This document shows, one piece after another, positions 5,665-51,355 of a stretch of 64,000 nt of DNA. Source of the stretch: a virus (Duplodnaviria; Caudoviricetes); the IMG/VR virus record IMGVR_UViG_3300012953_000012, positions 64,001 to 128,000 of that record; one strand, given 5' to 3'. The notes below the pieces were generated by a model that saw only the letters and a program-made list of their open reading frames with translations, was not told the origin of the DNA and ran no database searches. How positions within the stretch are numbered: the first letter of the stretch is position 1; each line of letters starts with the position of its first letter. Made by a program: the position numbers and the translations under genes.

Positions 5665-5679
5665 GGTAGTCCTACTATA
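5665..5679 (+). promoter_or_regulatory. Class L motif GGTAG-tccta-CTATA
   Basis: Intergenic after gene ending at 5661. Confidence 0.6.
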
Positions 5680-5730
5680 GGACCGGGAGGGTGGAGTCTC
5701 CATGTCGCCAACCCTTCGCAGAGCCGTCTG

Positions 5731-6063
5731 ATGCCCCGCATCTACACAAAGGTCATCCCAGTGAGGACCGTGGTCGATGTAGTGAAGCGCGACCCGCAGT
5801 GGTCGAACGCTGAGGACGCCCCCACGATCTCAATCAAGGTCAAGGTGACCTTTGAGACAGTCTTCACGGAGCACAAAGAAGCCCTGTGGTTGGAGGGTGA
5901 TGTGCAGGTGTGGCCCGACCGTGGGGTGGACATCCTCGCACTGGAGCCGCAGTACGGCACCGTCATCGGCCCCCGCGTGGCTACGGTCCTGGACATTTAT
6001 GAGGACGCGCTTCGACAGGCGTTCAAGGACACCAATCTGAACATCCTGGGGGTGGCACCGTGA
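5731..6063 (+). CDS. Hypothetical protein
   Basis: Downstream of TAG-N5-CTAT motif; GTGA overlap with next gene. Confidence 0.55.
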   Translation: MPRIYTKVIPVRTVVDVVKRDPQWSNAEDAPTISIKVKVTFETVFTEHKEALWLEGDVQVWPDRGVDILALEPQYGTVIGPRVATVLDIYEDALRQAFKDTNLNILGVAP

Positions 6064-7142
6064 GCACAAGGAAGCGCCTGACCCGACAAGCCGCCTCCCT
6101 CTCGCTCGGCGGGCGGGATCTGCCCCTGGAAGCAGACCTGAAAGCGGATGTGGCCTACGACCATGAGTTGGTCGGCAAGGACGTTGAGGTCTCCAGCATC
6201 GCTGGGGGAACCTTGCACCCTTACAGGGACAGGAAGGCTGTGATCCAGGGGGTCATCACTCGCTTCGGTGAGATCGTCGGATACCAGGTCACTGTGGGCG
6301 GGAAAGTGCATCATGGTCCCGCCAAGGACTTCTATGTGGACCGTTCGGTGGTGGAGGGCGTCCAGCCGCCGACCGCAACCTCAGTTGCCCTTCGTGAAGG
6401 GTTGTCGCACTGGGGTCAGCAACGCACCTACTGGCACACGCAAGCCGCCGGGCTGGAGTCGATGGCTTTCGCCGTGGCTTCCGTGACCCCACAGGCGGTG
6501 GCCCAACATTACGAGTGGGGTTGGGACTTCGCTGTTCCTGATCTCATGCCGGGGGGCTGCACAACAGTCCGGTGCCCGGCGTTCCAGCACAACGACTTCT
6601 GGACTGTGACCACATCGGTCTTCCCTCTCCGTGGGGGCCTGCAACCCAAAGCCCCGCTGATCGAAGACCACTGGCAGCGCACCTTCATGTGGACATTAGC
6701 CATCGCGGACGGCATGTCGAACCTCGACACCGACCCCTGGCCCTGGAAGAGGGCTGTGGCCAGCATCAAGGCCCGAATGTTGGCCACGGAGCAGGTGCTG
6801 GTGCCCTTGTTGAACGAGTGCTTGAACGAGTGCCTGGAAGCCCGGCGAGAAATCTCAGGGTCAGCGCCCGACCTCGTGCCGGGATCAGTCTCGGTGGGCT
6901 TCTCGTCGGTGCGCCTGAAACCCAACACCATCGGCCTGACGGAACCGCCGACAGATCGCCGTCCCTACACGGTGATCTCCATCGCCCCCCAGGCTGCCAG
7001 GTCACGCCACTACTTGCGGCAGGTGGTCTTGCACGAGTGCATCCACATCGCTGTAAACAACGGAAGCGGGGAGAAGCCTCACAACGACCTGTTTGACGCT
7101 ATTGCGGAGCGTGTGGGGTTGGAGCCAAAGCACAGGGACTAA
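6060..7142 (+). CDS. SprT-like zinc metalloprotease domain protein
   Basis: C-terminal QVVLHECIHIAV...HNDLF (HExxH plus distal H). Confidence 0.65.
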   Translation: MSTRKRLTRQAASLSLGGRDLPLEADLKADVAYDHELVGKDVEVSSIAGGTLHPYRDRKAVIQGVITRFGEIVGYQVTVGGKVHHGPAKDFYVDRSVVEGVQPPTATSVALREGLSHWGQQRTYWHTQAAGLESMAFAVASVTPQAVAQHYEWGWDFAVPDLMPGGCTTVRCPAFQHNDFWTVTTSVFPLRGGLQPKAPLIEDHWQRTFMWTLAIADGMSNLDTDPWPWKRAVASIKARMLATEQVLVPLLNECLNECLEARREISGSAPDLVPGSVSVGFSSVRLKPNTIGLTEPPTDRRPYTVISIAPQAARSRHYLRQVVLHECIHIAVNNGSGEKPHNDLFDAIAERVGLEPKHRD

Positions 7143-7225
7143 GGGGATTTTCTGCGAGGGGGGTGGGATCACTGCGCCGGTTCGGTAGTACCAAGCACCT
7201 GCTTGAACCCGTTCCCGGCAAGACC

Positions 7226-8803: not shown

Positions 8804-9240
8804 ACCCGCATGAACCGATCCTACATCGAAGGGATGATTAGCGAGATCATCATCAACGCTCCCAGTCCGAATGTATGGAGCGAAGGCGAGTACGAGGTCA
8901 GGGACTACCGGGGAACCGTCGAAGTACGCTTCTCTGGCTTCTCGGACCTCTGCGAGTTCGTCAACGCCGTTGAGAGGCGGGGTTGGGTAGCGACCATCAA
9001 GTCCGACGCCCGACGCCTTCTGTTCGGCGTGACCTTCGACATCCCGGCAGGCGAGGACCACGAGGGTTTGGCCTTGTTCGTGAGTGTGCGAGCCATGAAC
9101 ACCACCCTCCGAGCCTTGAAGAAGACGTACCCGGAAGTCACCCAAGAGTTCAACGCCCTTCTCGCCGCAGACGGCAAGACTTGGCAATCCGCCGCCCCTC
9201 CCCGCTGGATTCAAGGGCACCCTCACCATCGAGTAAACCC
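8765..9240 (+). repeat. Direct repeat pair: 8765-8807 (with extra CTCACC) and 9204-9240 (37 bp), flanking one gene
   Basis: gctggattcaagggcaccctcacc[ctcacc]atcgagtaaaccc read at both sites. Confidence 0.95.
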
Positions 9241-9244
9241 ATGA
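8810..9244 (+). CDS. Hypothetical protein bounded by direct repeats
   Basis: 144-aa ORF starting just after repeat copy 1 and ending across copy 2. Confidence 0.6.
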   Translation: MNRSYIEGMISEIIINAPSPNVWSEGEYEVRDYRGTVEVRFSGFSDLCEFVNAVERRGWVATIKSDARRLLFGVTFDIPAGEDHEGLALFVSVRAMNTTLRALKKTYPEVTQEFNALLAADGKTWQSAAPPRWIQGHPHHRVNP

Positions 9245-9567
9245 CCCCCACCTATGCCGTCAAGGACGGCAGGTACTCCTACACGCACATCACGGGCGAG
9301 GTCTTCGACACCGGACCCGAGATGGCGATGGTCTTCGACGTGCATGACGATCCAAGCCGCTCGATCCGCGTGACCTTGCACAAACATGGCCCTGTGGACA
9401 AGGTGACGCACTGGTACGAGGCCGCCATGGCCGCTTACAAGGAAAGCGGGCACCTTGAATGGGCTGAGGGCTTCATTCTCGTCACCGGGAAACTCGACGT
9501 GGACGAGGTGAACAAGGCCCTTGCGATCACAGGCTACTGCCCGTCGTTCCTGCCGGAAGGTGCGTGA
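9241..9567 (+). CDS. Hypothetical protein
   Basis: ATGA overlap with upstream stop. Confidence 0.6.
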   Translation: MTPTYAVKDGRYSYTHITGEVFDTGPEMAMVFDVHDDPSRSIRVTLHKHGPVDKVTHWYEAAMAAYKESGHLEWAEGFILVTGKLDVDEVNKALAITGYCPSFLPEGA

Positions 9568-9608
9568 TGGGACTCTCTCTCCGTGTCTACCTCTACTGGA
9601 CGTGACCC

Positions 9609-13138: not shown

Positions 13139-13537
13139 TCAGTCCTCCTCGGCGGGTTCGGGTGAGGCGGCAGGTGCAGCGGGGAGCGGGCAAGACAAGG
13201 GAGCGATTTCTGGCGGTTGCTCAGACGGCTCTGCCTCGATCATCCCAGCGTTCCACAGGCTCATGGACTTGTGCCACTCATGGCGAGCCTCGATGGTCAG
13301 CACGAAGTCCGCAGCCTTCTCGCACTCGGGGTCAGAGAACTGGGGTCCCTCGGCATCCGACTCGCAGGAGCAGTGCTCTTCGATGAAGGTCCGAAGGTAC
13401 TTGGCCTGCTGGGTAGCCCAGTTGTCGTACTGGTCGAGTTCGGCCTGATAGACACGGGCGTCCCGCAGGACGGTCTTGTGGGCGCACCCGGCTGTCAGAC
13501 TGACAGCGACGAGAAGCGCGGTGATTTCTGCTTTCAT
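13139..13537 (-). CDS. Putative lipoprotein
   Basis: MKAEITALLVAVSLTAG|C signal-peptide-II-like N-terminus; GGAGG RBS; Pro-rich C-terminus. Confidence 0.65.
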   Translation of the reverse strand: MKAEITALLVAVSLTAGCAHKTVLRDARVYQAELDQYDNWATQQAKYLRTFIEEHCSCESDAEGPQFSDPECEKAADFVLTIEARHEWHKSMSLWNAGMIEAEPSEQPPEIAPLSCPLPAAPAASPEPAEED

Positions 13538-13541
13538 GGCG

Positions 13542-13599
13542 ATTCGCCTCCAACGATGGTTCACCGGACTATACCGGCGACACATCGTTGGAGGCGAAT
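13542..13599 (-). promoter_or_regulatory. RBS-sequestering hairpin (perfect 17-bp stem) upstream of lipoprotein gene
   Basis: Arms 13583-13599 and 13542-13558 are exact reverse complements; 3' arm contains GGAGG. Confidence 0.85.
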
Positions 13600-13611
13600 A
13601 GAGGGGCTACC
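13597..13611 (-). promoter_or_regulatory. Class L (late-type) motif GGTAG-cccct-CTAT
   Basis: Matches TAG-N5-CTAT; CTAT overlaps the start of the hairpin 5' arm. Confidence 0.7.
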
Positions 13612-13918
13612 ACCAGTGGTGGTCAGGGTGGGAATCCAACTCGGCAACGTAGGCGGCCACGGCGGCAGCATCCCGAGCAGCCTCGATGGCTCCCACAGCC
13701 CGCTCCAGGGCAGCGTAGCGAGCGGGGTGCTCCAGGATCATGTCGGGGTCGAGGTCGATGCCGAAGGCGTCCTTGAGGGACACCGTTTCAATCTCGGCCT
13801 CTTCGCCGGGTTGGTCCCAGGTCGCAGCGCAACCAGGGGAGTAGGTCAGGGAGCCGGTCACGATGCCCATTCCGGGCAGGGTCACAGCGTCTTCGGTGGT
13901 CAGGGTCACAGTAGGCAT
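13607..13918 (-). CDS. Hypothetical protein
   Basis: CTGGAG RBS before ATG 13918 (MPTVTLTT). Confidence 0.6.
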   Translation of the reverse strand: MPTVTLTTEDAVTLPGMGIVTGSLTYSPGCAATWDQPGEEAEIETVSLKDAFGIDLDPDMILEHPARYAALERAVGAIEAARDAAAVAAYVAELDSHPDHHWW

Positions 13919-16352: not shown

Positions 16353-16624
16353 TGTCTGCTGTTCAACCCCTCGTGGCTGTAGCCACGATCCCCGTCCCGA
16401 CCGGCTGGCGGTTCGTCCTGGAGGACGACATGCCCAGCATCGAGCGTGACGTGGGAGACTTCACCCTCACCGTTGGTTTGGACGACGGCAAGTGGCGCTG
16501 GTGGCTCTGCCCCCGTGGCCACAGCGGTGCCGTCCCAAGCCCCGGCAGCGGTGCGGACATGGTGGACGCCATCTGGCAGGTCTTCGACGCCCTCGCCCGC
16601 CGCCTTGATGGAGGTGGAGCATGA
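16352..16624 (+). CDS. Hypothetical protein
   Basis: GGAGG RBS; overlaps upstream stop. Confidence 0.55.
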   Translation: MSAVQPLVAVATIPVPTGWRFVLEDDMPSIERDVGDFTLTVGLDDGKWRWWLCPRGHSGAVPSPGSGADMVDAIWQVFDALARRLDGGGA

Positions 16625-16839
16625 CCCGCTGTGACCGCTGCCCGAAGCCCCTCGGCGTCCATCGGGTGTCGTGGTTCAACCTCGACACCATCTGCACTCG
16701 CTGTCAGGCCCAGGAAGAAGCCCACCCCGACTACGCCTATGCCCGCGATGTAGAACGCAAGCGGGTACAGGTTGGTGACTACAACTTCGTTGGAGTCGGC
16801 TGGCCTGGAGTCAACGGCAGGGTGCTCCGCACCCGGTAG
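16621..16839 (+). CDS. Small zinc-finger-like protein (CDRC...CTRC)
   Basis: ATGA overlap; GGAGG RBS. Confidence 0.6.
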   Translation: MTRCDRCPKPLGVHRVSWFNLDTICTRCQAQEEAHPDYAYARDVERKRVQVGDYNFVGVGWPGVNGRVLRTR

Positions 16840-16872
16840 ACGGGCTATCGCCTCCGACTGTTCGGAGGCGAT
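16835..16872 (+). promoter_or_regulatory. Class L motif GGTAG-acggg-CTAT fused to an 11-bp RBS/start-codon-sequestering hairpin
   Basis: atcgcctccga-ctgt-tcggaggcgat (16847-16872) buries GGAGG and the AT of ATG 16871. Confidence 0.85.
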
Positions 16873-34697: not shown

Positions 34698-34708
34698 AAT
34701 CGACAGAC

Positions 34709-34723
34709 GGTAGCCTCGCTATA
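34709..34723 (+). promoter_or_regulatory. Class L motif GGTAG-cctcg-CTATA
   Basis: Intergenic, right after tandem terminator. Confidence 0.7.
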
Positions 34724-34795: not shown

Positions 34796-35092
34796 ATGTC
34801 GGAAGAATCACCATCAGCAAAGGCTCTCCAGTGGGGCAAGGACATCCTGGTGATCCTTGTGATCCCGGCGTTGATCTGGATCGTGAAGTTGGAGACCGGC
34901 AACGCGCAGCGCGACCTGATGCTTCAGCAGTCGAGGGACGAGGTAGCCCGCCTGGAAGAGCGCATCGGAGAAATCCGAGACATCGACCAGCGTGTCCAGG
35001 AGAATGCGTTGCATCTGGCCCGCCTGGAGGGGAAACTCGACACAGCCAACGGGAGACTCGATGAGATCCGTTCCATCCTTCTGGAGAGGTAA
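34796..35092 (+). CDS. Small TM plus coiled-coil protein
   Basis: CAGGAG RBS; DILVILVIPALIWIV then heptad-rich C-terminus. Confidence 0.65.
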   Translation: MSEESPSAKALQWGKDILVILVIPALIWIVKLETGNAQRDLMLQQSRDEVARLEERIGEIRDIDQRVQENALHLARLEGKLDTANGRLDEIRSILLER

Positions 35093-35390
35093 AGCCTGCG
35101 GCGCTGCACTCGTGATCCTGTTGATGATGGCCTTCCTGAGCCTCTACAAGTCGAACCTATGCCCGACAACCTTGACCGGGGACACGGCCTACGAGCCCGC
35201 CGCTGCCCCCGAAGTCGCCGTAGACGAACCTCCCCCAACGCCGCCCCCACCGCCGTCTGACGTAGAGACTGAGATGCAGCGTGCCCTCACCGAGCAGACA
35301 CGCATCCTGGAAGAAATCGCAAAGGACGTGGACTCGGTGAATCAGAGCCTGGACGAGATCACGGTGCTCCTTCAGGAACCTGCTCGGTAG
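35061..35390 (+). CDS. Small TM, Pro-rich, coiled-coil protein
   Basis: Start ATG 35061 overlapping upstream gene; AALVILLMMAFLSLY. Confidence 0.5.
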   Translation: MRSVPSFWRGKACGAALVILLMMAFLSLYKSNLCPTTLTGDTAYEPAAAPEVAVDEPPPTPPPPPSDVETEMQRALTEQTRILEEIAKDVDSVNQSLDEITVLLQEPAR

Positions 35391-35400
35391 GGTGGCTATA
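35386..35400 (+). promoter_or_regulatory. Class L motif GGTAG-ggtgg-CTATA
   Basis: TAG is also the upstream stop codon. Confidence 0.65.
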
Positions 35401-35430: not shown

Positions 35431-36276
35431 ATGATGAACCTCACCGACTCTGACCGCGCGGCCATGACACGACTGGCCAACCTTCTCCCCGAAGGCTCTG
35501 CCGACCGGGACGTCCTTCTGGCGACCGCTGGCATGGACAAGGAGGCCGCCTCCGCTGGTGAGTTTGCTTCCTACATCCTCTCCAAGCAGGAGGGTGACCC
35601 CATCCCCGTGAAGGAAGTCGAAGGCTTCGTCAAGGGTCTGGGCATCCGCGTCAGCGAAGGCGGACGGTCGAAGCGGAGCGGCGCTCGTTGGCAGCGCGGC
35701 GACCGGGTCTGCATCAAGGGTGACAAGCACAAGGGTGACGGCGTTGAGGTCTACCGGGCACACGACCGAAAGGTTGGTTTCGTTGTAGACGACGGTGGTG
35801 GGCAGAAGGGTGATCCGGTCACAGTCAAGTTTGGCGGTGAAGAGATCCTTTTCCCCAACGCCCAGCGTAGTCGCGGCGTCGGTATGTACAAGGCGACCGA
35901 CTACTCCAGCATGAAGGGCTACGGCCCCATCGAGATCATCTACAAGGCCAACCCCAGCAGCAGGCCCAACCCCGACCAGAAGCAGATCGCTGCCGAGTAT
36001 GTCTCTCGCGGTGACGCTCGCGGCGAGAGGCGCAGCCTCAACTACTACTCAGGCTGGGTTTTCATCGCGGCCAAGGGTGGCAACGGCTTCTACTTCTCCA
36101 TTCTCTCTCAGCAGCGGGCCAGCCAGGACGCTTGCGCCGAGGGTTTCCCCTTCCGTTCGTTCAATCCGGCCAAGGCTGAAGTCCTCTACATCGGACGCCT
36201 CGGCAAGCGCCCTCGTGGGTGGGAGAAGGACTGGGAAGCCTTGCAGATTGCTGCGGCGGCTGCGGCTGCGAAGTAG
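35431..36276 (+). CDS. Hypothetical late-type protein
   Basis: CTGGAG RBS; class L motif upstream. Confidence 0.7.
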   Translation: MMNLTDSDRAAMTRLANLLPEGSADRDVLLATAGMDKEAASAGEFASYILSKQEGDPIPVKEVEGFVKGLGIRVSEGGRSKRSGARWQRGDRVCIKGDKHKGDGVEVYRAHDRKVGFVVDDGGGQKGDPVTVKFGGEEILFPNAQRSRGVGMYKATDYSSMKGYGPIEIIYKANPSSRPNPDQKQIAAEYVSRGDARGERRSLNYYSGWVFIAAKGGNGFYFSILSQQRASQDACAEGFPFRSFNPAKAEVLYIGRLGKRPRGWEKDWEALQIAAAAAAAK

Positions 36277-36628: not shown

Positions 36629-36631
36629 CCC

Positions 36632-36646
36632 GGTATCTGGCCTATC
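36632..36646 (+). promoter_or_regulatory. Class L variant GGTAT-ctggc-CTATC
   Basis: One mismatch; intergenic upstream of 36681. Confidence 0.45.
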
Positions 36647-36680: not shown

Positions 36681-38798
36681 ATGACTACAGGATGGGAGCC
36701 AGTATCGGGGTCATTCCCATGGCCCCCGGCCAACGGCACGGCCATGTCCTCCTTCCATCGCGAAGGTGCGGACATCCGTTGGGATGATCCGTCTACCTTG
36801 ATCACGGGTCCTTCCACACCCTCTACAAGGGCCACAGTGTCCATCACGGTGGTGGGCATCCCTGATGTCCTTACCGCTTCCACAGCCTCACTCACGCTCT
36901 CCGGTGCCCCTATTGCAGCAGGGGACACCATCGCGGTGGGTGGGGTTGTGCTCACGTCGGTAGCCGCAGCCCCAGGGCCGGACGAGTTCGACGGGTCCTC
37001 TGGGGACACAGCGGTCGTGGCCGCCAACATCGCCACCGCCATCAACGACGGTTCGGTCGGCACCTGGGGCATCGCCTCTGCCACGGCTGCTCTCAATGTG
37101 GTCTCCCTCACAGCGGACACGGCGGGTGAGGTCGGTGACGAGATCACGTTGTCGTCCGGCAGCGACAGGATCACGGCATCCGGGAGCACTTTCTCTGGCG
37201 GCCTGGACCCAGACACCCTGACCATCGGGGGCCAGGTGCTGTCCGCCGAGACCACCCGGACGGCGGGCGGTATGAACTTCGGCGTGGGGCCGACCAACTT
37301 CGACACCGCCGCGAGCATCGCTGCGGCTATCAACGACACCACCAACGACCTGGGGTTCATCACAGCCACCACGGATGGGGTCATCGTACTCGTCGCGGCG
37401 TTCCTGGACGGAACCATGGGTGATGGGATCACCATCGCCACGACGAACACCACGGCGTTTGAACTGAGTGATTCCCGGACGACCGGCGGGACCGGCGTTG
37501 CTTGCGAGGGCAAGTCCAACAGCGAGTGGCAGATCCTCGGAGTCAACGTCTACCGCAGCGACACCGGAGAGCGCGGCCCCTACTTCCGGGTCAACCGCAT
37601 CCCGGTCATGACCAACTTCTTCCGCGACAAGACGGACATCGTCGAGGTCACAGGTGAGGTGATCCCGTGGGACACAGGCTGGGTCTATAGGGGATCAGCG
37701 CCCAACCAGAAGGACGTCTGGCGACTCCAGACGAGAAACCGGCCCATGGTCAAGCGCACCGGGAACGCCGTCGCTGCCGACTCGCCTTTCGACGTCGAGG
37801 TCCACATCGACGGAACACGGACGCCCGTATCAGCCGTGTTCGGCCCCAACGGTCAGGTCACACTCGACACGACCCCTGTGTGGGACCCGAGCACCGAGTC
37901 CTGGGTCACGTTCACACCGCCCACACCCACGAGTGCGGTGACCATCAACTACTACTGGAAGCGCGGCGACACCCTGGTCAACACCCTGGACCGCCGCCAC
38001 AAGGTCTTCTACCGCCTCACCACGGTCGCCATTGACCCCACGGGGGAGAGCCCGACCGGCCTGGTTGAGACCCCGCTGGGATACACCGAGCCGATCTCCC
38101 CCATGAACAGTGAGAGGTTCGACTACATCTGGCGGGAAGCCGTGCGGCGGAACCGCTGGATCCTGGAGCAAGGCGGTGAGCGCGTGAAGTTGTTTCTCCG
38201 CAGGGTCACCGGGGTCAAGTGCGACTGCGTGTGGGACGAACGGCTGGAGGAGTACAGCAAGCAGCCCTCCAACACCTGCCTGGAGTGCTACGGCACCGGG
38301 TTCGTCGGAGGCTACGAAGGCCCCATCGACATCATCATCGCCCCGGACGACGCAGACCGGCGCGTGACGCAGACACCCAACGGACGCCGACTGGAGCACC
38401 AGTACGAGGTGTGGATCGGACCCAGCCCGATGCTCTCGCAGCGGGACTTCATCGTGAAGCAGAACGGTGAACGGTACGCGGTTGGCCCTGTCCGCCGGAC
38501 TCAGGTGCGTGGCCTGATCCTCCAGCAAGCGTTCGCCATCGGCTACCTGGACACGGGCGACATTCGCTACCGGGTGCCCATGGGCGAGTTGGAACGCCTT
38601 CCGTGGCCCGAGACTCGCTACAGCAACCCCGAAGACGCACCGTGCGAGAGTCCGCAAGATCCGCATCCAGTCGGCTACGACTACCAGGCAACCCCGATGA
38701 TGTCGGAAGCCGCGAAGATCCCAGACGGACGGGAGCAACGAGGCAGGACCCCCGTGTGGCAGAACATCACCTACGGTGGTGGCGGGGGTAAGAAGTAA
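36681..38798 (+). CDS. Virion structural protein, probable neck/head-closure protein with N-terminal repeated domains
   Basis: C-terminal CDCVW...TCLECYGTGFVGGY resembles head-tail connector proteins of large myophages; N-terminal Ala/Thr/Gly-rich duplicated module. Confidence 0.5.
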   Translation: MTTGWEPVSGSFPWPPANGTAMSSFHREGADIRWDDPSTLITGPSTPSTRATVSITVVGIPDVLTASTASLTLSGAPIAAGDTIAVGGVVLTSVAAAPGPDEFDGSSGDTAVVAANIATAINDGSVGTWGIASATAALNVVSLTADTAGEVGDEITLSSGSDRITASGSTFSGGLDPDTLTIGGQVLSAETTRTAGGMNFGVGPTNFDTAASIAAAINDTTNDLGFITATTDGVIVLVAAFLDGTMGDGITIATTNTTAFELSDSRTTGGTGVACEGKSNSEWQILGVNVYRSDTGERGPYFRVNRIPVMTNFFRDKTDIVEVTGEVIPWDTGWVYRGSAPNQKDVWRLQTRNRPMVKRTGNAVAADSPFDVEVHIDGTRTPVSAVFGPNGQVTLDTTPVWDPSTESWVTFTPPTPTSAVTINYYWKRGDTLVNTLDRRHKVFYRLTTVAIDPTGESPTGLVETPLGYTEPISPMNSERFDYIWREAVRRNRWILEQGGERVKLFLRRVTGVKCDCVWDERLEEYSKQPSNTCLECYGTGFVGGYEGPIDIIIAPDDADRRVTQTPNGRRLEHQYEVWIGPSPMLSQRDFIVKQNGERYAVGPVRRTQVRGLILQQAFAIGYLDTGDIRYRVPMGELERLPWPETRYSNPEDAPCESPQDPHPVGYDYQATPMMSEAAKIPDGREQRGRTPVWQNITYGGGGGKK

Positions 38799-39113: not shown

Positions 39114-39117
39114 CCTC

Positions 39118-39132
39118 GCTACCCCTTCTATA
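39118..39132 (+). promoter_or_regulatory. Class L variant GCTAC-ccctt-CTATA
   Basis: Intergenic upstream of 39157; mismatch in TAG. Confidence 0.45.
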
Positions 39133-39156: not shown

Positions 39157-39981
39157 ATGAGCCAAAAACGCGCTGCTGTTCGATCTGTCCTCGCAAGGAT
39201 GCGGACGGCGAACCCTCTCGCCACCACCCTCCGGGGAATGGTCCGGGGGCTCGTCGGTGAACCCACCGTCAAGGGCTACAAGGCCACCCCCAGAGGGATC
39301 GTGGTCGATCTGTCTGCTTCCGTCCTCCTGCCACCCTCCGAAGTGCTCAAGACGGTCCAGTCAGCACCTCCGAAGGATGCCCTTGCTCTCCTGAGTGCTG
39401 ACCCCACGCTGATGCAGTCACACTTCTCCATGGACTCTGCTGTGGTTGCGCTGCCCTTCGACAAACTGCCCGACAACCAGTTCAAGGCCATGGTCAAGAA
39501 GATGGGCGGTCTGTCCCTGTACTCGGATGCCATACTGATCGCCCTGTTGGAGGGTCGGGAGCCGTCGTTCCCGGACCCTGAGAGCGGCCTCCCAGAGTTG
39601 TCGCGGGGCTTCGCAAGCCAGTACATCCAACGCCCCGGAAATCTCGGGGCTGTTCCCGAGTTTTACGTTCGACAGCCCATCAAGAACGGCGTGTTGGACG
39701 GCTTGGCATCGGACCATGTGGACGGGGCGGGGACGGTTGGCCGCATCGACATCGGCACCTTCCCCCTCTCCTCGCTCACGGTGTTCATGACGCAAGTCGG
39801 TAAACCTCCCGGCAAGGGGACAAAGTGGTTCAAGAATGGGGACGGATGGCTCACAGAACAAGGGACTGTGGACTTCCCCGATCAGCCTGTGTCGGTGTAC
39901 ATGAGCCAGCCCTTCAAAGTGAAACTCACATCGCTCCCCCGCAGTGCCATCGAGGCCCTGGTCAAGGAAGCGGCTCAATAG
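39157..39981 (+). CDS. Hypothetical late-type protein
   Basis: AGGAGG RBS. Confidence 0.7.
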   Translation: MSQKRAAVRSVLARMRTANPLATTLRGMVRGLVGEPTVKGYKATPRGIVVDLSASVLLPPSEVLKTVQSAPPKDALALLSADPTLMQSHFSMDSAVVALPFDKLPDNQFKAMVKKMGGLSLYSDAILIALLEGREPSFPDPESGLPELSRGFASQYIQRPGNLGAVPEFYVRQPIKNGVLDGLASDHVDGAGTVGRIDIGTFPLSSLTVFMTQVGKPPGKGTKWFKNGDGWLTEQGTVDFPDQPVSVYMSQPFKVKLTSLPRSAIEALVKEAAQ

Positions 39982-39983
39982 CG

Positions 39984-40019
39984 AGTAGTTTCTCTATGGC
40001 CTTCTCCCTGTAGGAGGCC
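39984..40019 (+). promoter_or_regulatory. Class L motif AGTAG-tttct-CTATG plus SD-occluding hairpin
   Basis: ggccttct-ccctgt-aggaggcc (39998-40019, one G-U pair). Confidence 0.7.
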
Positions 40020-40022: not shown

Positions 40023-40337
40023 ATGGCGAGATGCGGGCGTTGTGGGCTGTGGTCGAAGTACCCGGACAGCCATCACGAGCAGAAATACGCAGGGGTGTGC
40101 CTCTGGTATCAGCACCGTCTGATGGACGACGACGTGTTTGAGGACCGGGAGTGCAAGGACTTCTTTGAGCGTGTGCCTGGCCTGATGCCGATGGACCACT
40201 TCGACTACAAGATCAAGCGGGACAACCTCGGTGACGCCTACACCCAGGCACGCTTCAGCAAGCGCCTGGCGCTCATGGGGGCCGTGCTGTCGGTGATCTC
40301 ACTGGCCCTGTCGCTATGGAAGGTGTTCGGTGCCTAA
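40023..40337 (+). CDS. Cys-containing protein with C-terminal TM helix
   Basis: CGRCGLW...C...C; LALMGAVLSVISLALSLW. Confidence 0.65.
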   Translation: MARCGRCGLWSKYPDSHHEQKYAGVCLWYQHRLMDDDVFEDRECKDFFERVPGLMPMDHFDYKIKRDNLGDAYTQARFSKRLALMGAVLSVISLALSLWKVFGA

Positions 40338-41577: not shown

Positions 41578-42594
41578 ATGGCAACCAAGAAGCAAACTCC
41601 TCTCGGAGTCGGTCTGGACATCGGCACCATGAACATTGTCTCGGCACGGCGCAAGGACGACGGACAGGTTGAGACCAGCCGGATGCGAGATGCGTTCCTG
41701 GATCTGGACGCAGGTGCCAAGCGGATGCTCAAGTTGTCCGGGGTCAACTTCATCGACCACGGGGACGACGGGATCATCGTCGTCGGTGACGCGGCCATGG
41801 AGATGGCCAACGTCTTTGGGCGCGAAGCCCGCCGCCCCTTGTCGCAGGGCCTGATCTCGGCAGGCGAGATGGACGCGCTCGATGTCCTCGGGGTCATGAT
41901 CAAGAACGTCCTGGGCGAGCCAGCGACGAAGGACGAGGCGTGCTACTTCTCGGTTCCTGCCTCCCCGGTCGATGCTGACCGTGACGTCGTCTACCACAAG
42001 GGCGTGTTTGAACGCATCGTGAGCGAGTGTGGGTTCGACGCCTACGCGGGCAACGAGGCGATGGCCATCGTCTACGCTGAAACTGCGGCGGACGGCTTCT
42101 CCGGTCTGGGCATCTCGTTCGGGTCCGGCATGTGCAACCTCGCCCTGGCTGTGTCGGGTGTAGAGGGACTGTGTTTCTCCGTGGCGCGTGGTGGTGACTG
42201 GATCGACGCTGGAGCCGCGAAGGCAACCGGCAGCACCCAGAGCCGCATCTGTGCCCTCAAGGAGAGAGGCATCGACCTCATGGACCCCAAAAGCCGTGAC
42301 GAGGAAGCCCTCGCCCTCTACTACAAGAGCCTGATCGAGTACTGTGTGGACCAGACGGCCCGCGAGTTCATGAAGATCAAGGACCGGTTCGCGCTCCCGA
42401 AGGCCATCCCCATCGTAGTCAGCGGGGGGACCTCACTGGCTGGCAACTTCCTGCCCTTCTTTGAGCAGGTCTTTGAGAAGAAGCGGAAGAGATTCCCCAT
42501 CGAGGTCAGCGAGATCAGACACGCCTCGGACCCCCTGAACGCTGTTGCACGAGGTCTGCTGATTCAGGCTATGCAGGAGCACGAGGAAGACTGA
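41578..42594 (+). CDS. Actin-fold ATPase (MreB/ParM/FtsA superfamily)
   Basis: Phosphate-1 GVGLDIGT, connect NEAMA, phosphate-2 GISFGSG, adenosine VVSGGTS; AGGAG RBS. Confidence 0.8.
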   Translation: MATKKQTPLGVGLDIGTMNIVSARRKDDGQVETSRMRDAFLDLDAGAKRMLKLSGVNFIDHGDDGIIVVGDAAMEMANVFGREARRPLSQGLISAGEMDALDVLGVMIKNVLGEPATKDEACYFSVPASPVDADRDVVYHKGVFERIVSECGFDAYAGNEAMAIVYAETAADGFSGLGISFGSGMCNLALAVSGVEGLCFSVARGGDWIDAGAAKATGSTQSRICALKERGIDLMDPKSRDEEALALYYKSLIEYCVDQTAREFMKIKDRFALPKAIPIVVSGGTSLAGNFLPFFEQVFEKKRKRFPIEVSEIRHASDPLNAVARGLLIQAMQEHEED

Positions 42595-43031: not shown

Positions 43032-43238
43032 TTAGAAACGCACGGTGATCTTCGGCATGTTGCCAGTGGTGGCCGAGGTCGGCGCACAGCAAGCGTTGGG
43101 CCGGACAGTGTTGCCGGTGTTGGCCATCGTAACGCCGTTGATGGGCGTAGCGGTAGCACTGGACCCACTTCCCTTGACCCGCAGACGGTAGAAGGGTGGG
43201 ACGGGCTGGTACTCAGAAGTGGTGGAACGAGTGGGCAT
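43032..43238 (-). CDS. Small late-type hypothetical protein
   Basis: CTGGAG RBS; class L motif upstream. Confidence 0.55.
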   Translation of the reverse strand: MPTRSTTSEYQPVPPFYRLRVKGSGSSATATPINGVTMANTGNTVRPNACCAPTSATTGNMPKITVRF

Positions 43239-43280: not shown

Positions 43281-43295
43281 CATAGACTCCCTACC
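43281..43295 (-). promoter_or_regulatory. Class L motif GGTAG-ggagt-CTATG
   Basis: Intergenic, sense to 43238 gene. Confidence 0.65.
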
Positions 43296-43300
43296 GCAGA

Positions 43301-44067: not shown

Positions 44068-44637
44068 ATGGGGGGAGGTAGTGCTTTGACTCGCAAACTC
44101 AAACCTGTTGACATCCCGGTCCCGGAACCTTTCCGGTCAGCCATGCTATCCGTCGCGGTGACCAACGAGGACGGCGGTTTCACGACTGTCGGCACCCTCG
44201 TGCAGGAAGCCCAGGAGGCTATCCGTCGTGCCAACGAAGCACTGGCGGAAAACAGCCTGGTGGAGTTGGCTGCGAAGGACATGATGAAGGGTCACCGTCG
44301 TCGTGGCAACGCCTCTATCGAGGTGGGTGCAGACGGCTCGGTGCGGCTACGGATCTCCTACTCGACCAGGCGGGACGGCCCCAACGTCACGACCGCTCCA
44401 GGAGGGGCAGGGCTTCCGTCACTGGACGCCTTGCGGAAGGAGGCCCAGGATCTGGGGCTCGACGTCAGCCACCTGGGACGCAGGAAGTTGGAGATCATGG
44501 ACCTGATCACCAACGCCCGAGACATCATGCAGAACCACCATGGAGGGACGGAGCCCGTTGATCCCTTGCCGCGACGTCTACGGGACGAGGTGTCTACCAC
44601 CACCCCCCTCCACACAAAGAAACTCCCGCCTCGGTAG
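44068..44637 (+). CDS. Hypothetical protein (start uncertain)
   Basis: LPSLDALRKEAQDLGLDVSHLGRRK may be a HeH-like motif. Confidence 0.55.
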   Translation: MGGGSALTRKLKPVDIPVPEPFRSAMLSVAVTNEDGGFTTVGTLVQEAQEAIRRANEALAENSLVELAAKDMMKGHRRRGNASIEVGADGSVRLRISYSTRRDGPNVTTAPGGAGLPSLDALRKEAQDLGLDVSHLGRRKLEIMDLITNARDIMQNHHGGTEPVDPLPRRLRDEVSTTTPLHTKKLPPR

Positions 44638-45749: not shown

Positions 45750-45768
45750 TCCGACCAAAGGAGTGGAC

Positions 45769-46356: not shown

Positions 46357-46392
46357 ACCCCCCACACTTACAGCGCGGAGGGTCAGACTTTC

Positions 46393-46809: not shown

Positions 46810-46848
46810 GCGTGGTGGACCACGCGACTTTGTAGTGGTCGGCTCGGA

Positions 46849-47220: not shown

Positions 47221-47228
47221 GCGTCACC

Positions 47229-47504: not shown

Positions 47505-47576
47505 ATGCCCTCCAGGTGGTGATGGGCTCTCTTACCGAGATGGGGCCGGGTGTGTGCCCCCACAGCCGAGAAAACC

Positions 47577-47611
47577 AATAGGCCGCCTATCCCCCACCTC
47601 CTTCAAGGAGG
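47577..47611 (+). promoter_or_regulatory. Class L motif AATAG-gccgc-CTATC plus short anti-SD hairpin
   Basis: cctcct-tca-aggagg directly upstream of nuclease GTG. Confidence 0.6.
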
Positions 47612-47616
47612 CCGTT

Positions 47617-48006
47617 GTGTCCGCTGCCAAGATCCCGAGTCCGTATGTCTACCGTGCCGAGGTGATCTCGGTCTACGATGGCGACACCATCACCGTCATG
47701 CTTGATCTCGGCATGGGCATCGTCCGTAAGGCGAAGTGCAGGCTGCTGGGGATCGACACTCCAGAAATCCGCACGAAGTCCGCAGCCGAGAAGGAGGCTG
47801 GCTACACGGCACGGGACCGCGTTCGGAAGTTGATCCTGGGCAAGACCGTGGTGCTGCACTCGGTAGCGAAGCCCGACAAGTACGGACGCTTGCTGGTCAA
47901 GGTGTGGGCCGAGGACGGCTCCTGTGTCAACCAAGTGCTGCTCGACGAGGGCCTGGCCCGCGAGTACGACGGCGGAACTAAGGTGTCCTGGGCCTCATGG
48001 ACCTGA
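47617..48006 (+). CDS. Thermonuclease (SNase family), no signal peptide
   Basis: VISVYDGDTI, RLLGIDTPE, DKYGRLL, LLDEGLA. Confidence 0.9.
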   Translation: MSAAKIPSPYVYRAEVISVYDGDTITVMLDLGMGIVRKAKCRLLGIDTPEIRTKSAAEKEAGYTARDRVRKLILGKTVVLHSVAKPDKYGRLLVKVWAEDGSCVNQVLLDEGLAREYDGGTKVSWASWT

Positions 48007-48014
48007 GCCGGTTC

Positions 48015-48029
48015 GATAGTCCGGCTATA
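48015..48029 (+). promoter_or_regulatory. Class L motif GATAG-tccgg-CTATA
   Basis: Intergenic, 31 nt upstream of tail tube gene. Confidence 0.7.
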
Positions 48030-48059
48030 CTCCACCACCAGTACATCCCGGAGTGACTC

Positions 48060-48818
48060 ATGGCGAACACAGACCTCAACCCACAGGGCGGCATCCAAGG
48101 ATCGTCGCAGATCTACAACTTCGGGACGACCCCCAATACACGGTCGGTCGTCACGCAGAAGGTCCGGGTCCTTGCGCCTGCTTATGGCGGAAGTGGTCTG
48201 TTCCAGATCGGTGTGCTGTCCAACTTCGGACCCACCGAGTCTCGTACCATCGAGCCTGTGCGCGGCATCGGATTCGGTGACATCATCGCGGAACTCGTGC
48301 CGGGCAACACGGAGCCAATGACGGCTTCCGTCGAGCGCACAATGCTCTACCTCTCCAACCTGTGGCAGAGCACTGGCTACGCTTCCGGCGTGTCCGGCCC
48401 CGTCCGGTCCCTTCGTCACCACCGTTGGCCGTTCGATGTCGAGCAGCAGATCGTCTTCTCGACCATCGCTGACCGTGAGTTGACCTCCTCGGGTGATGGC
48501 ACGGGTGTTGAGACTGGCTTCGGCTCCTACGGAACGCTGAAGTACGACGGCGCTCTCGGTGGCGGTGGACCTGACGGCAACGGGAGCCAGCCAGGATCAC
48601 ACCAGATCCTGATCACCTACTACGAAGGTTGCTGGTGGGGCGACTGGAACACCTCGTTCCAGAAGGACACCGCGATGGTCATGGAGTCCGGGACCATGAC
48701 GATCACCGACGTTCACGACTTCTCCAGCGTCCAGTACGGTGAGTTCCTGGCGACAGGCAACGATCCGTCCATCGGCCAGACTGGAAGCCTGATCTACGGG
48801 TCCACCTTCGACGGGTGA
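48060..48818 (+). CDS. Tail tube protein
   Basis: ESRTIEPVRGIG...ELVPG...VERTMLY; TYYEGCW...SF...VMESGTM; position before chaperones and tape measure. Confidence 0.7.
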   Translation: MANTDLNPQGGIQGSSQIYNFGTTPNTRSVVTQKVRVLAPAYGGSGLFQIGVLSNFGPTESRTIEPVRGIGFGDIIAELVPGNTEPMTASVERTMLYLSNLWQSTGYASGVSGPVRSLRHHRWPFDVEQQIVFSTIADRELTSSGDGTGVETGFGSYGTLKYDGALGGGGPDGNGSQPGSHQILITYYEGCWWGDWNTSFQKDTAMVMESGTMTITDVHDFSSVQYGEFLATGNDPSIGQTGSLIYGSTFDG

Positions 48819-48837
48819 TCCCACGAAAACGACTGAA

Positions 48838-48873
48838 AGAAGGCCGAGGAGGTTGATGCCCCCTCGGCCTTCT
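48838..48873 (+). terminator. Hairpin after tail tube gene
   Basis: agaaggccgagg / cctcggccttct 12-bp stem. Confidence 0.7.
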
Positions 48874-48942
48874 ACGTTATCGCCCATGTGGGATGCGTGA
48901 CGTAGCCCCAGCGCGGGTACAGTCTCCCCTCGGAGGAGACCC

Positions 48943-50121
48943 ATGCTTGACCTCAATACACTCAAAACCGCGCTCAAGCCGCTCTCGGAGATGGGGCGTG
49001 ACGAGTTCACCTTTGACGTGGATGGTATGGGCATCACGTTGCGCCCGCTCCTTCCGTTGGAGGAGGTGGCAGTGCAGCGGTACTCCGCGTCTATCCTTGA
49101 CGACATCCAGGAACGGGAAGGGTTGGACACCAACGACAACATGAGCCGCGCTGCGGCCATGGACTACTTCGACCGTTTCCGCATCGAGATCATCGCCAAC
49201 GCCATTGTCCAGGTGGGCGACCTGGACCTCCGCGACGAGAGGTACATCGCGACGGGTGAGACCCTGGAGAACGGCACGCCGGTCCAGGTGCCACGCCACA
49301 TCGCCATGCGAGGGATCGTCCAGGAGTGGTCCCGCGCCATGCTTACCGTGTGCTTCGCTCGTTACGGTGATCTCGTCCAGAAGATTGCCGACGAGGCGGA
49401 CAAGATTGCCCGGACCACGCTCCCTGACCTCGACGCAGAAATCGAACGGGTCGAGGCTCGCCTGAAGACCTTGAAGCAGGACCGTGAGACCCGTGCGAAG
49501 GGTGACCCCAGCGTCACGGCCTCCCAGATCACCAACCTGGTCAACGCCGGGAAGGCTTTGGAAGCCGAAGCAGATTCCGCACTCAGCCGGGTGGAGGACG
49601 AACTGGAACTCCAGGAGGCGGTGAAGGAACGAAAGGCCGCCCAGCGACCTCGGCAACGAAAGGCCGCACCGGCACCTACGCAGGCCGCGAAGCCTGCCCC
49701 AGCACCCACACCGCCCGCACCCGCGCCACCACAAGAACGCAAGTCGGTGATCCCTTCCGCATCGCCACCCCCCTCGTCGTTTCCGTCGTCCGGCGGGACA
49801 CATGTTCCGGGCGAGGTGATGTCCTCCTTCGGTGACGGGGATGACCCCGAAGTGCTCGCCGCAGAAGAGTTGAGGATCCTGGAGGCGCGTCGTCAGGCAG
49901 CCCTGGCCCGCCACACGGCGCACGAACAGGAGGCGCGTGATCCCTTCCGAGAGGCTGTTGAGGTCGCGTCCCCTGAGAAAGGTGTCGAAGCCTACCGACT
50001 GCCCAAAGAGGAGTTGACCCCCCGTGGCCGCGCCAGCGCACCCTCCCCGAAGAAAGGGCGAAAGGGCAAGGGCAAGGGGCCACAAAGCACGGAGAATCCA
50101 AACTTCAAGCCACCACGATGA
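48943..50121 (+). CDS. Probable tail assembly chaperone
   Basis: GGAGGAG RBS; between tube and tape measure; FTFDVDG..ITLRPL; Pro-rich disordered C-terminus. Confidence 0.55.
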   Translation: MLDLNTLKTALKPLSEMGRDEFTFDVDGMGITLRPLLPLEEVAVQRYSASILDDIQEREGLDTNDNMSRAAAMDYFDRFRIEIIANAIVQVGDLDLRDERYIATGETLENGTPVQVPRHIAMRGIVQEWSRAMLTVCFARYGDLVQKIADEADKIARTTLPDLDAEIERVEARLKTLKQDRETRAKGDPSVTASQITNLVNAGKALEAEADSALSRVEDELELQEAVKERKAAQRPRQRKAAPAPTQAAKPAPAPTPPAPAPPQERKSVIPSASPPPSSFPSSGGTHVPGEVMSSFGDGDDPEVLAAEELRILEARRQAALARHTAHEQEARDPFREAVEVASPEKGVEAYRLPKEELTPRGRASAPSPKKGRKGKGKGPQSTENPNFKPPR

Positions 50122-50130
50122 TGGTGCCAG

Positions 50131-51345
50131 ATGGACCGTGATGAGATCCTCCGTCAACAAGCCGAGGACCACCTACTCCAGGAGGCGCACCGAAGGAGAT
50201 TCCTCTACAACGACGTAGAGACCCTGCTCCTGACGGGGTGGCTCTCACAGGTTGTGCCGCTCGGTCCTGGGAGCGTGACGCTCCGCACATACGACACCAC
50301 GAGCCACACCCACCTGATCATGCGGTGTGAAGGTGACCCCTCCAACTGGAAGCGGCACCGAGTAGCCCATGCCGTCTACATGGTGAATGGTTTCTACGTT
50401 CACCAGGAGGATCCCAACGCGGCCCACCACGTCTACCAGGAATGGTTGCGGAACGTCCGGGTTGAGCACATCGAAGTCCTGCACACCTATGTGCTGGGTC
50501 TGACGAACCGCCTGGCGAGGGCGTGCCGCCTGACCAACGCCTACTGCCACGAGCCGTATTCCCGTGCCCTCTGGAAGCGTAAGCCCCGCCAACAGGCCGC
50601 TTCCCAGAACGTCGTCCAGGAGTTGTGGTGGGCGTGGAACGAGTCCCAGGACACCTTCGACTCGGACATTAGGCAGTGGCAACACACCCGCTCCATCGTC
50701 GGCTCTATGAGCAGCAAGGGCGCGAAATCATTGAAGAAGTCCGAGGACGGTTGGAAGAAAAGGCGAGAGGATCTCGCCGCACGCACCATCGAGGACGCGG
50801 TCAACTGGGTCATCAGCGGGGAGCGGGAGGAACAGAAGCCTCTCACCGTCACGGTGAACGGACAGACCTTTGAGGTGCCGAAGGTCCACGCCTCCCAGAC
50901 GGTTGATGAGATGCAGGAAGAACTCATGCGGGCCGTGCGTGGGGAGAAGGACTACCACGACCTCATGGTGGAACAGTACAAGACGTACCACCGAGCCAAG
51001 AACGAGGCCGCCCGACAGGAACGGCAGAGGGCGGTGGAGGAGGCTCGCCGTGCATCGGAAGAGCGTGAGATCACGGGACGCACAGCAATCGTCGGCTACA
51101 CACCTGAGCAGTTGGCCGAGATCAACCCGGACATCTTCGACCAGCCCACAGCGAGGCACCAGCAGCACTCGCCCGAGCGGGAGCGGTTCGACAAGTACCT
51201 CGACACCGATGTCGAGGTAGGGTGGATCGGCGCGTCAGGGAAACCGGAACGAGCCCAGAGTGACCCCCCTCAGTCGGAGACTGGCACCAAAGGCCAAAGC
51301 CTTCAAGACAAGATCAGCCGCCGCAAGCCCCGTCTGAAACCATAG
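50131..51345 (+). CDS. Second tail-assembly-region protein (in frame with 48943 ORF)
   Basis: Directly upstream of tape measure. Confidence 0.6.
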   Translation: MDRDEILRQQAEDHLLQEAHRRRFLYNDVETLLLTGWLSQVVPLGPGSVTLRTYDTTSHTHLIMRCEGDPSNWKRHRVAHAVYMVNGFYVHQEDPNAAHHVYQEWLRNVRVEHIEVLHTYVLGLTNRLARACRLTNAYCHEPYSRALWKRKPRQQAASQNVVQELWWAWNESQDTFDSDIRQWQHTRSIVGSMSSKGAKSLKKSEDGWKKRREDLAARTIEDAVNWVISGEREEQKPLTVTVNGQTFEVPKVHASQTVDEMQEELMRAVRGEKDYHDLMVEQYKTYHRAKNEAARQERQRAVEEARRASEEREITGRTAIVGYTPEQLAEINPDIFDQPTARHQQHSPERERFDKYLDTDVEVGWIGASGKPERAQSDPPQSETGTKGQSLQDKISRRKPRLKP

Positions 51346-51355
51346 TCAGCCTATG
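51341..51355 (+). promoter_or_regulatory. Class L motif CATAG-tcagc-CTATG
   Basis: Upstream of tape measure; TAG is also the upstream stop. Confidence 0.65.

What the first reader, a model, noticed from the sequence alone, without database searches (positions are those of the whole stretch)
5665..51355. Compact late-type motif TAG-N5-CTAT, often overlapping the upstream stop codon
Seen: 12 exact copies (5665, 13611-, 16835, 24210, 34709, 35386, 39984, 43295-, 44633, 47577, 48015, 51341) and 2 variants (36632, 39118). All are intergenic or at gene ends, sense-oriented, and include the baseplate, tail tube and tape measure genes. In 5 of 12 the TAG doubles as the upstream stop, which saves space but could inflate the apparent TAG conservation; the other 7 are independent of stops. 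No -35 box was noticed, which recalls T4 gp55-type -10-only promoters. I did not exhaustively scan coding regions for background hits.
Basis: partly seen in the sequence, partly recalled or inferred. Interest (0 to 1): 0.7.

Follow-up and report, generated by a model that had tools for sequence, protein, structure and literature searches.

The report
Giant-phage late promoter box CGGTAG-N5-CTAT
A rigid 15-base signal, CGGTAG, five free bases, then CTAT, sits just in front of tail, baseplate and many unknown genes of an uncultured marine giant phage and its relatives, and is most likely the phage's own late promoter, though no transcript start has been measured.

Summary
TAG-N5-CTAT gives 16 strand hits (12 sites) in the window against 0.67 expected. 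All 12 sites are intergenic or overlap only a stop codon, and all face a start codon, most of them 24-35 nt away.

The full signal is CGGT(A/g)G-N5-CTAT with a strictly 5-nt spacer and no -35 element. An unbiased dyad search ranks it first in this genome and in three relatives. It is also present in a complete 436-kb relative. At orthologous sites the two halves stay invariant while the spacer and flanks drift.

- About 45% of sites carry a third element, GGKTA, 11-15 nt after CTAT.
- About 10% are followed directly by an anti-Shine-Dalgarno hairpin arm, as in T4 translational timing switches.
- ORF 23182-24090 is a divergent sigma-70-family protein. Its sigma-2 domain is nearly invariant across the clade while its sigma-4 domain drifts, which fits a -10-only promoter.
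- No phage RNA polymerase gene was found.

"Late" is supported by the baseplate genes, with tail-tube and tape-measure genes as leads. Replication genes sit behind other promoter classes. Membership in the T4 gp55 type is not met.

This scan had already reported the same motif in neighbouring windows of this genome and in another genome.

The parts
5664..5678 (+). Box CGGTAGTCCTACTAT, 52 nt before gene 5731-6063
13598..13612 (-). Box TGGTAGCCCCTCTAT. TAG is the stop of 13607-13918(-). It is followed at once by a -42 kcal/mol hairpin that pairs the SD of 13139-13537(-).
16834..16848 (+). Box CGGTAGACGGGCTAT. TAG is the stop of 16621-16839. An anti-SD arm abuts CTAT. The box stands before the baseplate module 16877-22482.
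24209..24223 (+). Weak two-strand copy GAATAGTTGCCCTAT in the divergent gap between the sigma gene (-) and 24330-25577 (+)
34708..34722 (+). Box CGGTAGCCTCGCTAT, just after a stem-loop seen by eye upstream, 73 nt before 34796-35092
35385..35399 (+). Box CGGTAGGGTGGCTAT. TAG is the stop of 35061-35390. It lies 31 nt before 35431-36276.
36631..36645 (+). Variant CGGTATCTGGCCTAT, 35 nt before 36681-38798
39117..39131 (+). Variant CGCTACCCCTTCTAT, 25 nt before 39157-39981
39983..39997 (+). Box GAGTAGTTTCTCTAT with an abutting anti-SD arm, 25 nt before 40023-40337
43282..43296 (-). Box CGGTAGGGAGTCTAT, 43 nt before 43032-43238(-); conserved in L003 and L005
44632..44646 (+). Box CGGTAGTGCCTCTAT. 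TAG is the stop of 44086-44637. An anti-SD arm abuts CTAT. Both halves are invariant in 5 aligned genomes.
47576..47590 (+). Box CAATAGGCCGCCTAT at a divergent junction, 26 nt before the nuclease gene 47617-48006
48014..48028 (+). Box CGATAGTCCGGCTAT, 31 nt before 48060-48818 (tail-tube-like lead)
51340..51354 (+). Box CCATAGTCAGCCTAT. TAG is the stop of 50131-51345. It lies 25 nt before the 1107-aa gene 51380-54703 (tape-measure-like lead).
23182..24090 (-). Candidate reader: a 302-aa divergent sigma-70-family protein with a conserved N-terminal beta domain, a sigma-2 domain and a sigma-4 domain

Best explanation
What it is. The box CGGT(A/g)G-N5-CTAT is a phage-specific core promoter of the virion (late) gene class in a clade of uncultured marine giant phages.

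How it probably works. It acts as a compact -10-type promoter with no -35 element. Host core RNA polymerase carrying a phage-made specificity factor binds the 15-bp box and starts transcription a few to about 12 nt downstream of CTAT. This gives short leaders that carry the Shine-Dalgarno sequence.

The most likely reader (my estimate about 0.5) is the sigma-70-family protein encoded at 23182-24090. Its sigma-2 domain, and perhaps its conserved N-terminal domain, would contact the box.

Subset behaviour. Where the box lies inside a co-directional gene array, the anti-SD arm that directly follows CTAT would lock translation on read-through transcripts. That arm would be missing from box-initiated transcripts, as in T4 late genes.

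Shown: the existence of the box, its rigid geometry, its position and orientation, its conservation across the clade, and the sigma nature of the ORF.

Inferred: promoter activity, the start site, late timing, and which factor reads the box.
For: Enrichment and geometry.
- 12 window sites against 0.67 expected.
- 28 of 28 genome sites fall in the 8.35% of the genome that is intergenic.
- 18 exact 15-mers are all intergenic; 14 of 20 one-mismatch copies are intergenic.
- The spacer is strictly 5 nt.
- Intergenic-only shuffles give 0.77 hits against 30 observed.
- All copies are sense-oriented, most of them 24-35 nt from a start codon.
- No upstream conservation appears in 84 sites from four genomes.

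Sites that need a promoter. Copies stand at divergent junctions, where a promoter is required and no upstream co-directional transcript exists: window 47576, plus three more beyond the window's end at window-relative positions 113575, 114152 and 123190.

Clade conservation.
- A blind dyad search ranks CGGT-N7-CTAT first in G000, G003, G004 and G005, and finds it 12 times upstream of genes in complete G006.
- Orthologous alignments keep both halves invariant while N5 and the flanks vary.

Functional split. The box stands before the baseplate, tail-tube-like and tape-measure-like genes. The DNA polymerase, exonuclease and ligase operons sit behind GGGTA-type or sigma-70-like promoters.

Sigma.
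- Profile match to SigH 3mzy, E 1.4e-4, across sigma-2 and sigma-4.
- 19 of 36 family members match Sigma70_r2.
- The Foldseek top 50 are almost all sigma factors.
- 47 of 87 sigma-2 columns are at least 90% conserved, against 1 of 80 sigma-4 columns. That matches a conserved -10-type box with no -35.
- The sigma gene itself is preceded by a conserved GTCGGTAyTGTG signal of the other class in G000 and G003, as expected in a cascade.
- Class-I promoter words are recoded between lineages, while the box is shared by all five genomes.

No phage polymerase. No beta, beta-prime or T7-like polymerase gene was found in G000-G006 or LR745208.1. The T7 positive control matches.

Hairpins. Anti-SD arms abut CTAT in 11 of 100 box sites against 1 of 250 control genes (Fisher 6e-6).
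Against: - No transcript 5' ends exist for this uncultured phage. Every contig I retrieved comes from metagenomes.
- The record is only about 46% complete by CheckV, so a polymerase or another factor could lie in the missing part.
- A 15-bp box with a 5-nt spacer does not map onto the usual sigma-70 -10 register. With T of CTAT at -7 there is no conserved A at -11.
- About 45% of sites carry a -10-like GGKTA element 11-15 nt downstream. This allows a different architecture in which the box is an upstream element.
- The sigma-to-box assignment rests on conservation patterns only. A second candidate exists, a 77-aa stand-alone sigma-4-type HTH beyond the window's end, at genome 175750-175983.
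- Most genes behind the box have no known function, so 'late' rests on a few modules.
- The more distant relative LR745208.1 has a partial sigma homologue but no enrichment of the box.
Confidence: 0.75

Rival explanations
1. The box is an upstream (-41 to -26) recognition element, like the T4 MotA box. A phage activator or a remodelled sigma-4 binds it, and the real -10 element is the GGKTA(G/A)G word 11-15 nt downstream, read by the host primary sigma.
For: GTA starts 11-15 nt after CTAT in 29 of 64 sites (P 1.6e-19). This also holds in 16 of 32 sites lying 33 nt or more from the start codon, and the element is seen again in G006. The same GGGTA word stands alone before about 34 other genes and resembles the -10 of the class-I promoters. 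A stand-alone sigma-4-type HTH protein exists.
Against: More than half of the sites have no TA at that position but keep a good SD. With this register the start site would fall on or beside the ATG at the many sites with only 24-31 nt to the start codon. That would make the conserved SD untranscribed, including at divergent-junction sites such as 47576, where no other promoter is seen. MotA and AsiA homologues were not searched for.
Confidence: 0.12
2. The box is read by a phage-encoded RNA polymerase, either single-subunit or highly divergent multisubunit, that was not detected. The polymerase would start right after CTAT, much as T7-type promoters end in CTATA followed by G.
For: The element is compact, has rigid spacing and lacks a -35. 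It ends in CTAT followed by G-rich positions. T7 promoters in the fetched record end in ...CACTATAG. The genome record is only 46% complete.
Against: PF00940, PF00562 and PF00623 find nothing in G000-G006, including a 100%-complete relative that carries the box, or in LR745208.1. The same search finds T7 RNA polymerase at E 1e-109. A conserved sigma-family gene is present in every box-bearing genome tested for it (G000, G003 and G006; sigma-anchored loci in G004 and G005).
Confidence: 0.07
3. The motif acts at the RNA level, as a processing site or a translational operator between cistrons, or it is a binding site for a non-transcriptional DNA-binding protein that exploits the TAG/CTA inverted repeat.
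For: The motif is strand-specific, lies close to start codons, overlaps stop codons, and TAG-N5-CTA is formally palindromic.
Against: Copies head transcription units at divergent junctions. The flanks are asymmetric: CGG on the left, and T rather than CCG on the right. N5 is unconstrained, and only a weak 4-bp stem is possible. No other candidate promoter is seen before these units.
Confidence: 0.05

Closest known systems
Middle/late promoters of phiEco32-like phages, read by the phage sigma gp36 on host core (PMC12276001)
   Same: There is a single short conserved element near -10 and no conserved -35. The phage encodes a distant two-domain sigma (an N-terminal sigma-2-like part and a C-terminal sigma-4-like part). 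Early genes use a sigma-70-like promoter class.
   Different: The consensus there is AATGTA, centred at -11.5, whereas here it is a bipartite 15-bp box with a rigid 5-nt spacer. No gp79-like partner was identified. The sigma here has an extra conserved N-terminal beta domain. Nothing has been measured here.
T4 late promoters (TATAAATA) read by gp55 with gp33 and the gp45 clamp (own knowledge; gp33 orthologues in jumbo phages are noted in PMC7824862)
   Same: The logic is -10-only, the promoters are squeezed into tiny intergenic gaps before virion genes, and some late promoters sit beside hairpins that hide the SD on earlier read-through transcripts.
   Different: The sequence is unrelated. gp55 is a sigma-2-only protein, whereas the candidate here keeps a sigma-4-like domain. 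gp33 and clamp dependence were not tested.
T4 middle promoters (MotA box plus sigma-70 -10, sigma appropriation; described in the discussion of PMC12276001)
   Same: In about 45% of sites the box lies at a fixed short distance upstream of a -10-like word.
   Different: The -10-like word is absent from most sites. The implied start sites would remove the SD. No MotA or AsiA homologue was sought.
Sigma-dependent promoter-proximal pausing at -10-like elements (PMC9191641)
   Same: A -10-like word, GGTAG, sits a few bases into the predicted transcript at a fixed distance from the promoter.
   Different: This is purely a sequence resemblance. No pause, antiterminator or start site is known here.

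Membership tests
Phage-sigma-dependent -10-only late promoter (phiEco32 gp36 type) | One conserved element close to the start site, with no conserved -35 | tested here: met
   84 aligned sites from 4 genomes show no information from -45 to -1 upstream of the box. Position relative to the true start site is unknown.
Phage-sigma-dependent -10-only late promoter (phiEco32 gp36 type) | The phage encodes a sigma-70-family protein | tested here: met
   ORF 23182-24090: profile match to SigH 3mzy at E 1.4e-4, 19 of 36 homologues match Sigma70_r2, and fold matches are almost all sigma factors.
Phage-sigma-dependent -10-only late promoter (phiEco32 gp36 type) | Transcripts start just downstream, and the holoenzyme with the phage sigma initiates there | not testable with these tools
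   The phage is uncultured and only metagenome contigs were found.
Phage-sigma-dependent -10-only late promoter (phiEco32 gp36 type) | Consensus AATGTA | tested here: not met
   The consensus here is CGGT(A/g)G-N5-CTAT.
T4 gp55-type late promoter | TATAAATA element at -10 | tested here: not met
   The box sequence is unrelated.
   The candidate aligns to SigH through sigma-4, and the model shows C-terminal HTH helices. gp33 and the clamp were not searched for.
T7-type single-subunit polymerase promoter | The phage encodes a T7-like RNA polymerase | tested here: not met
   PF00940 is absent from G000-G006 and LR745208.1. The positive control in T7 matches. The own genome is incomplete.
T4 MotA-box middle promoter | An upstream box plus a good -10 at fixed distance in all members | tested here: inconclusive
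   The GGKTA word lies 11-15 nt downstream in 29 of 64 sites only.
Sigma-70 family (for ORF 23182-24090) | Sigma-2 and sigma-4 domains in order | tested here: met
   All scores are below the Pfam gathering cut-off for the window protein alone (14 bits), so it is a divergent member.

The most novel reading that the evidence does not exclude
The box defines a new promoter architecture read by a new sigma subfamily. The nearly invariant sigma-2 domain, together with the conserved N-terminal beta domain, would read the two halves of a rigid 15-bp element, while sigma-4 has no DNA-reading role. The fixed downstream GGTAG word would act as a sigma-dependent pause or second recognition step. Anti-SD arms placed between the box and the start site would give a clade-wide, T4-like translational timing switch.
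Probability: 0.2. Interest if true: 0.7.

Novelty: new variant of a known kind. Interest (0 to 1): 0.5.

Why it matters
Giant marine phages of this clade are known only from metagenomes, and most of their genes have no annotation.

- A reliable late-promoter signal splits their genomes into transcription units and marks unknown genes as probable virion or late genes.
- It gives a concrete promoter-sigma pair to test in vitro. It would add a rigid bipartite -10-type element to the short list of known phage sigma specificities.
- The box is conserved from 38% to 100% sigma identity, while the early-type promoters are rewritten between lineages. This gives a natural system for studying how promoters and their readers co-evolve.

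Tried and rejected
- Megablast of 20 kb against GenBank phages found nothing. The nearest record, LR745208.1 (DNA polymerase 44% identical), shows no enrichment of the motif, so it could not serve for comparison.
- Searches for beta, beta-prime and T7-like polymerases were negative.
- A phmmer search of the sigma alone against PDB found nothing. Only the family profile found a match.
- PHROGs and Pfam left most genes behind the box unnamed.
- I considered a general rule that the 5'-UTR forms an SD-locking hairpin and rejected it. The mean z-score is only -0.7, and the effect is carried by a subset.
- I considered a dimeric palindromic operator and rejected it because the flanks are asymmetric.
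- I hoped that short contigs might be metatranscript ends marking the start site. All contigs were metagenomic.
- Literature searches for the motif and for promoters of huge phages found no prior description.
Full report
CONTEXT

The window is bases 64001-128000 of a 205,564-bp linear IMG/VR virus record. The record is 62% GC and about 46% complete by CheckV. Identical genes lie on Tara Oceans metagenome scaffolds of up to 258.6 kb. The nearest GenBank phage is an unannotated 485-kb uncultured phage whose DNA polymerase is 44% identical. This is therefore a fragment of an uncultured marine giant phage.

OBSERVATION

TAG-N5-CTAT occurs as 16 strand matches, which is 12 sites, against 0.67 expected. 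I called genes with a codon-usage and RBS model: 217 genes, with 8.35% of the genome left intergenic.

- All 12 window sites, and all 28 sites in the whole record, are intergenic or overlap only the stop codon of the upstream gene.
- Every asymmetric copy points at the next gene on its own strand.
- The distance from CTAT to the start codon is mostly 24-35 nt.
Genome-wide, 9 of 67 TAG stops lie in the motif.
- Shuffling only the intergenic DNA gives 0.77 hits against 30 observed.

ANATOMY

Aligning the sites shows C-G-G in front of TAG and nothing conserved further upstream. With 84 sites from four genomes there is no information at any position from -45 to -1.

The two halves predict each other without circularity:
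- Of 159 CGGTAG words, 18 have CTAT exactly 5 nt downstream. The next most common 4-mer occurs 5 times.
- Of 308 CTAT words, the hexamer 5 nt upstream is CGGTAG 18 times, CGGTGG 6 times and CGGTAT 3 times.
- The spacer is rigid: 18 sites at N5 and none at N2-N4 or N6-N9. In the relative G003 the counts are 25 at N5 and 0-2 at other lengths.

TAG is therefore the commonest form but not an obligatory one. The unit is CGGT(A/g)G-N5-CTAT. The TAG/CTA inverted repeat is probably incidental, because the flanks are asymmetric.

A THIRD ELEMENT

In 64 sites from G000 and G003, GTA starts 11-15 nt after CTAT (mode 12-13) in 29 sites, against 5.7% expected per site (P 1.6e-19). The same holds in 16 of 32 sites that lie 33 nt or more from the start codon, so this is not the Shine-Dalgarno sequence. 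The consensus is G-G-(G/T)-T-A-(A/G)-G. It recurs in the distant complete relative G006.

The same GGGTA word also stands alone 16-36 nt before about 34 other genes.

CONSERVATION ACROSS THE CLADE

- Loci from IMG/VR that encode relatives of the 392-aa protein at 48943-50121 (44-71% identity) keep the box at the same intergenic positions.
- MAFFT alignments of two such regions show CGGTAG and CTAT invariant, while N5 and the leader differ.
- I fetched four related genomes: G003 (297 kb, sigma 67% identical), G004, G005, and the complete 436-kb G006 (sigma 38% identical).
- A blind count of all 4-N(2-9)-4 dyads upstream of genes ranks CGGT-N7-CTAT first in G000, G003, G004 and G005. It finds 12 upstream copies in G006.
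- In G003, 33 of about 36 sites are intergenic, with the same spacing to start codons.

OTHER PROMOTER CLASSES AND TIMING

The same genome has two other classes.
- A sigma-70-like class, GTTAAA-N17-TAAGTA with a conserved spacer, stands before small genes and the ligase operon.
- A GGGTAnnGT class stands before the DNA polymerase module, the exonuclease gene and the sigma gene itself.

The box stands before:
- the baseplate module (a sheath-initiator or gp25-like protein and Baseplate_J);
- a protein whose nearest named clusters include a tail-tube family;
- a 1107-aa protein whose neighbours include tape-measure families;
- many large proteins with no family.

It also stands before a small nuclease gene. 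This split supports a late, virion class, but only a few functions are known.

WHO READS IT

No beta, beta-prime or T7-like polymerase gene was found in this record, in five relatives (one of them complete) or in LR745208.1. The same search finds T7 RNA polymerase.

The ORF at 23182-24090 belongs to a family of more than 900 proteins of about 300 residues on giant-phage contigs.
- Its profile matches the sigma-H structure 3mzy across both sigma domains (E 1.4e-4).
- 19 of 36 members match Sigma70_r2.
- The AlphaFold model (pLDDT 84.7) retrieves almost only sigma factors.
- Across the family, the sigma-2 part is nearly invariant (47 of 87 columns at least 90% conserved), the N-terminal beta domain is partly conserved (21 of 70), and the sigma-4 part is free (1 of 80).

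This pattern is what one expects of a factor reading a conserved -10-type element with no -35. It parallels the promoters: the box is shared by all five genomes, whereas the words of the bipartite early class are lineage-specific.

A 77-aa stand-alone sigma-4-type HTH encoded beside another box copy is a second candidate.

START SITE AND THE HAIRPINS

The register cannot be fixed from sequence. One indirect clue exists. In 11 of 100 box sites from five genomes, against 1 of 250 control genes, the leader folds into a significant hairpin whose 5' arm begins within 10 nt of CTAT and pairs the SD (Fisher 6e-6).

The window cases are 13598(-), 16834, 39983 and 44632. All lie inside co-directional gene arrays, with no room for a terminator. 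In two of them TAG is the upstream stop; at 16834 and 39983 the box lies directly against the upstream gene's end.

If transcription starts about 8-12 nt after CTAT, box-initiated transcripts would lack the anti-SD arm and read-through transcripts would keep it. This is the arrangement known for several T4 late genes (own knowledge). If transcription started directly after CTAT, the late message itself would be locked, which makes less sense. This is inference only.

RIVALS

- An upstream-box model in which GGKTA is the -10 fits the fixed spacing. It fails for the majority of sites that lack TA there, and it would remove the SD from the transcript.
- An undetected phage polymerase cannot be excluded while the genome is incomplete.
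- An RNA-level role is unlikely, because copies head units at divergent junctions.

PRIOR NOTES AND LITERATURE

Notes of this scan already describe the same box in neighbouring windows of this genome and in another genome, and one note raised the SD-locking hairpins. I re-derived these points independently.

- the spacer scan;
- the blind dyad ranking in four relatives;
- the downstream element;
- the hairpin statistics;
- the domain-wise conservation of the sigma;
- the polymerase controls.

I found no published description of the motif.

VERDICT

This is a real, clade-wide promoter-like signal and a new variant of a known kind. It is of moderate interest until a start site or a reader is measured.

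Noticed in passing
window 41578-42594 (+): This 338-aa protein matches Pfam Volactin (PF25216, an actin-family protein described from archaea) at E 2.6e-77 over its full length. An actin-like gene in a giant phage may position DNA or particles.
   Followed up: no
window about 12.6-12.7k(-), 14.6k(+), 30.1-30.3k (both strands); many more at genome 160-169 kb: A second promoter class, ccGTTAAAA-N-CTGCTTCCGTAAGTAgGTGA (sigma-70-like -35 and -10 with a conserved 17-nt spacer), stands before small genes and the ligase operon. Its words occur 15-16 times here and 0-2 times in relatives. G006 instead has 34 copies of GAGTAGTCTAGG behind a CTTATyT word.
   Followed up: partly
window 5067, 11317, 36288, 41035, 43965(-), 44060, 48915 and elsewhere: A third class, GGGTAnnGT, lies 16-36 nt before about 34 genes. 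These include the DNA polymerase module, the exonuclease gene and, as GTCGGTAyTGTG conserved in G003, the sigma gene. It is possibly a middle class.
   Followed up: partly
genome 175750-175983 (window-relative 111750-111983, outside the window): A 77-aa protein consists of little more than a Sigma70_r4-type helix-turn-helix (28.5 bits, above cut-off). It ends 5 nt before a perfect box copy.
   Followed up: partly
window 63916-63930 (+) and beyond 64000: A variant box, CGGTATTGCGACTAT, lies inside a weakly scored ORF 98 nt before a giant ORF of about 11.5 kb (window-relative 64029-75503).
   Followed up: no
whole record: TAG makes up 31% of stop codons (67 of 217), which is high for a 62% GC genome. 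Many TAG stops overlap the next gene's SD as TAGGAGG.
   Followed up: no
window 23182-24090 (-), residues 1-70: The sigma carries a conserved, confidently folded N-terminal beta domain with no clear relative. The only match is a weak one to a DUF2559 chain at E 0.16.
   Followed up: no
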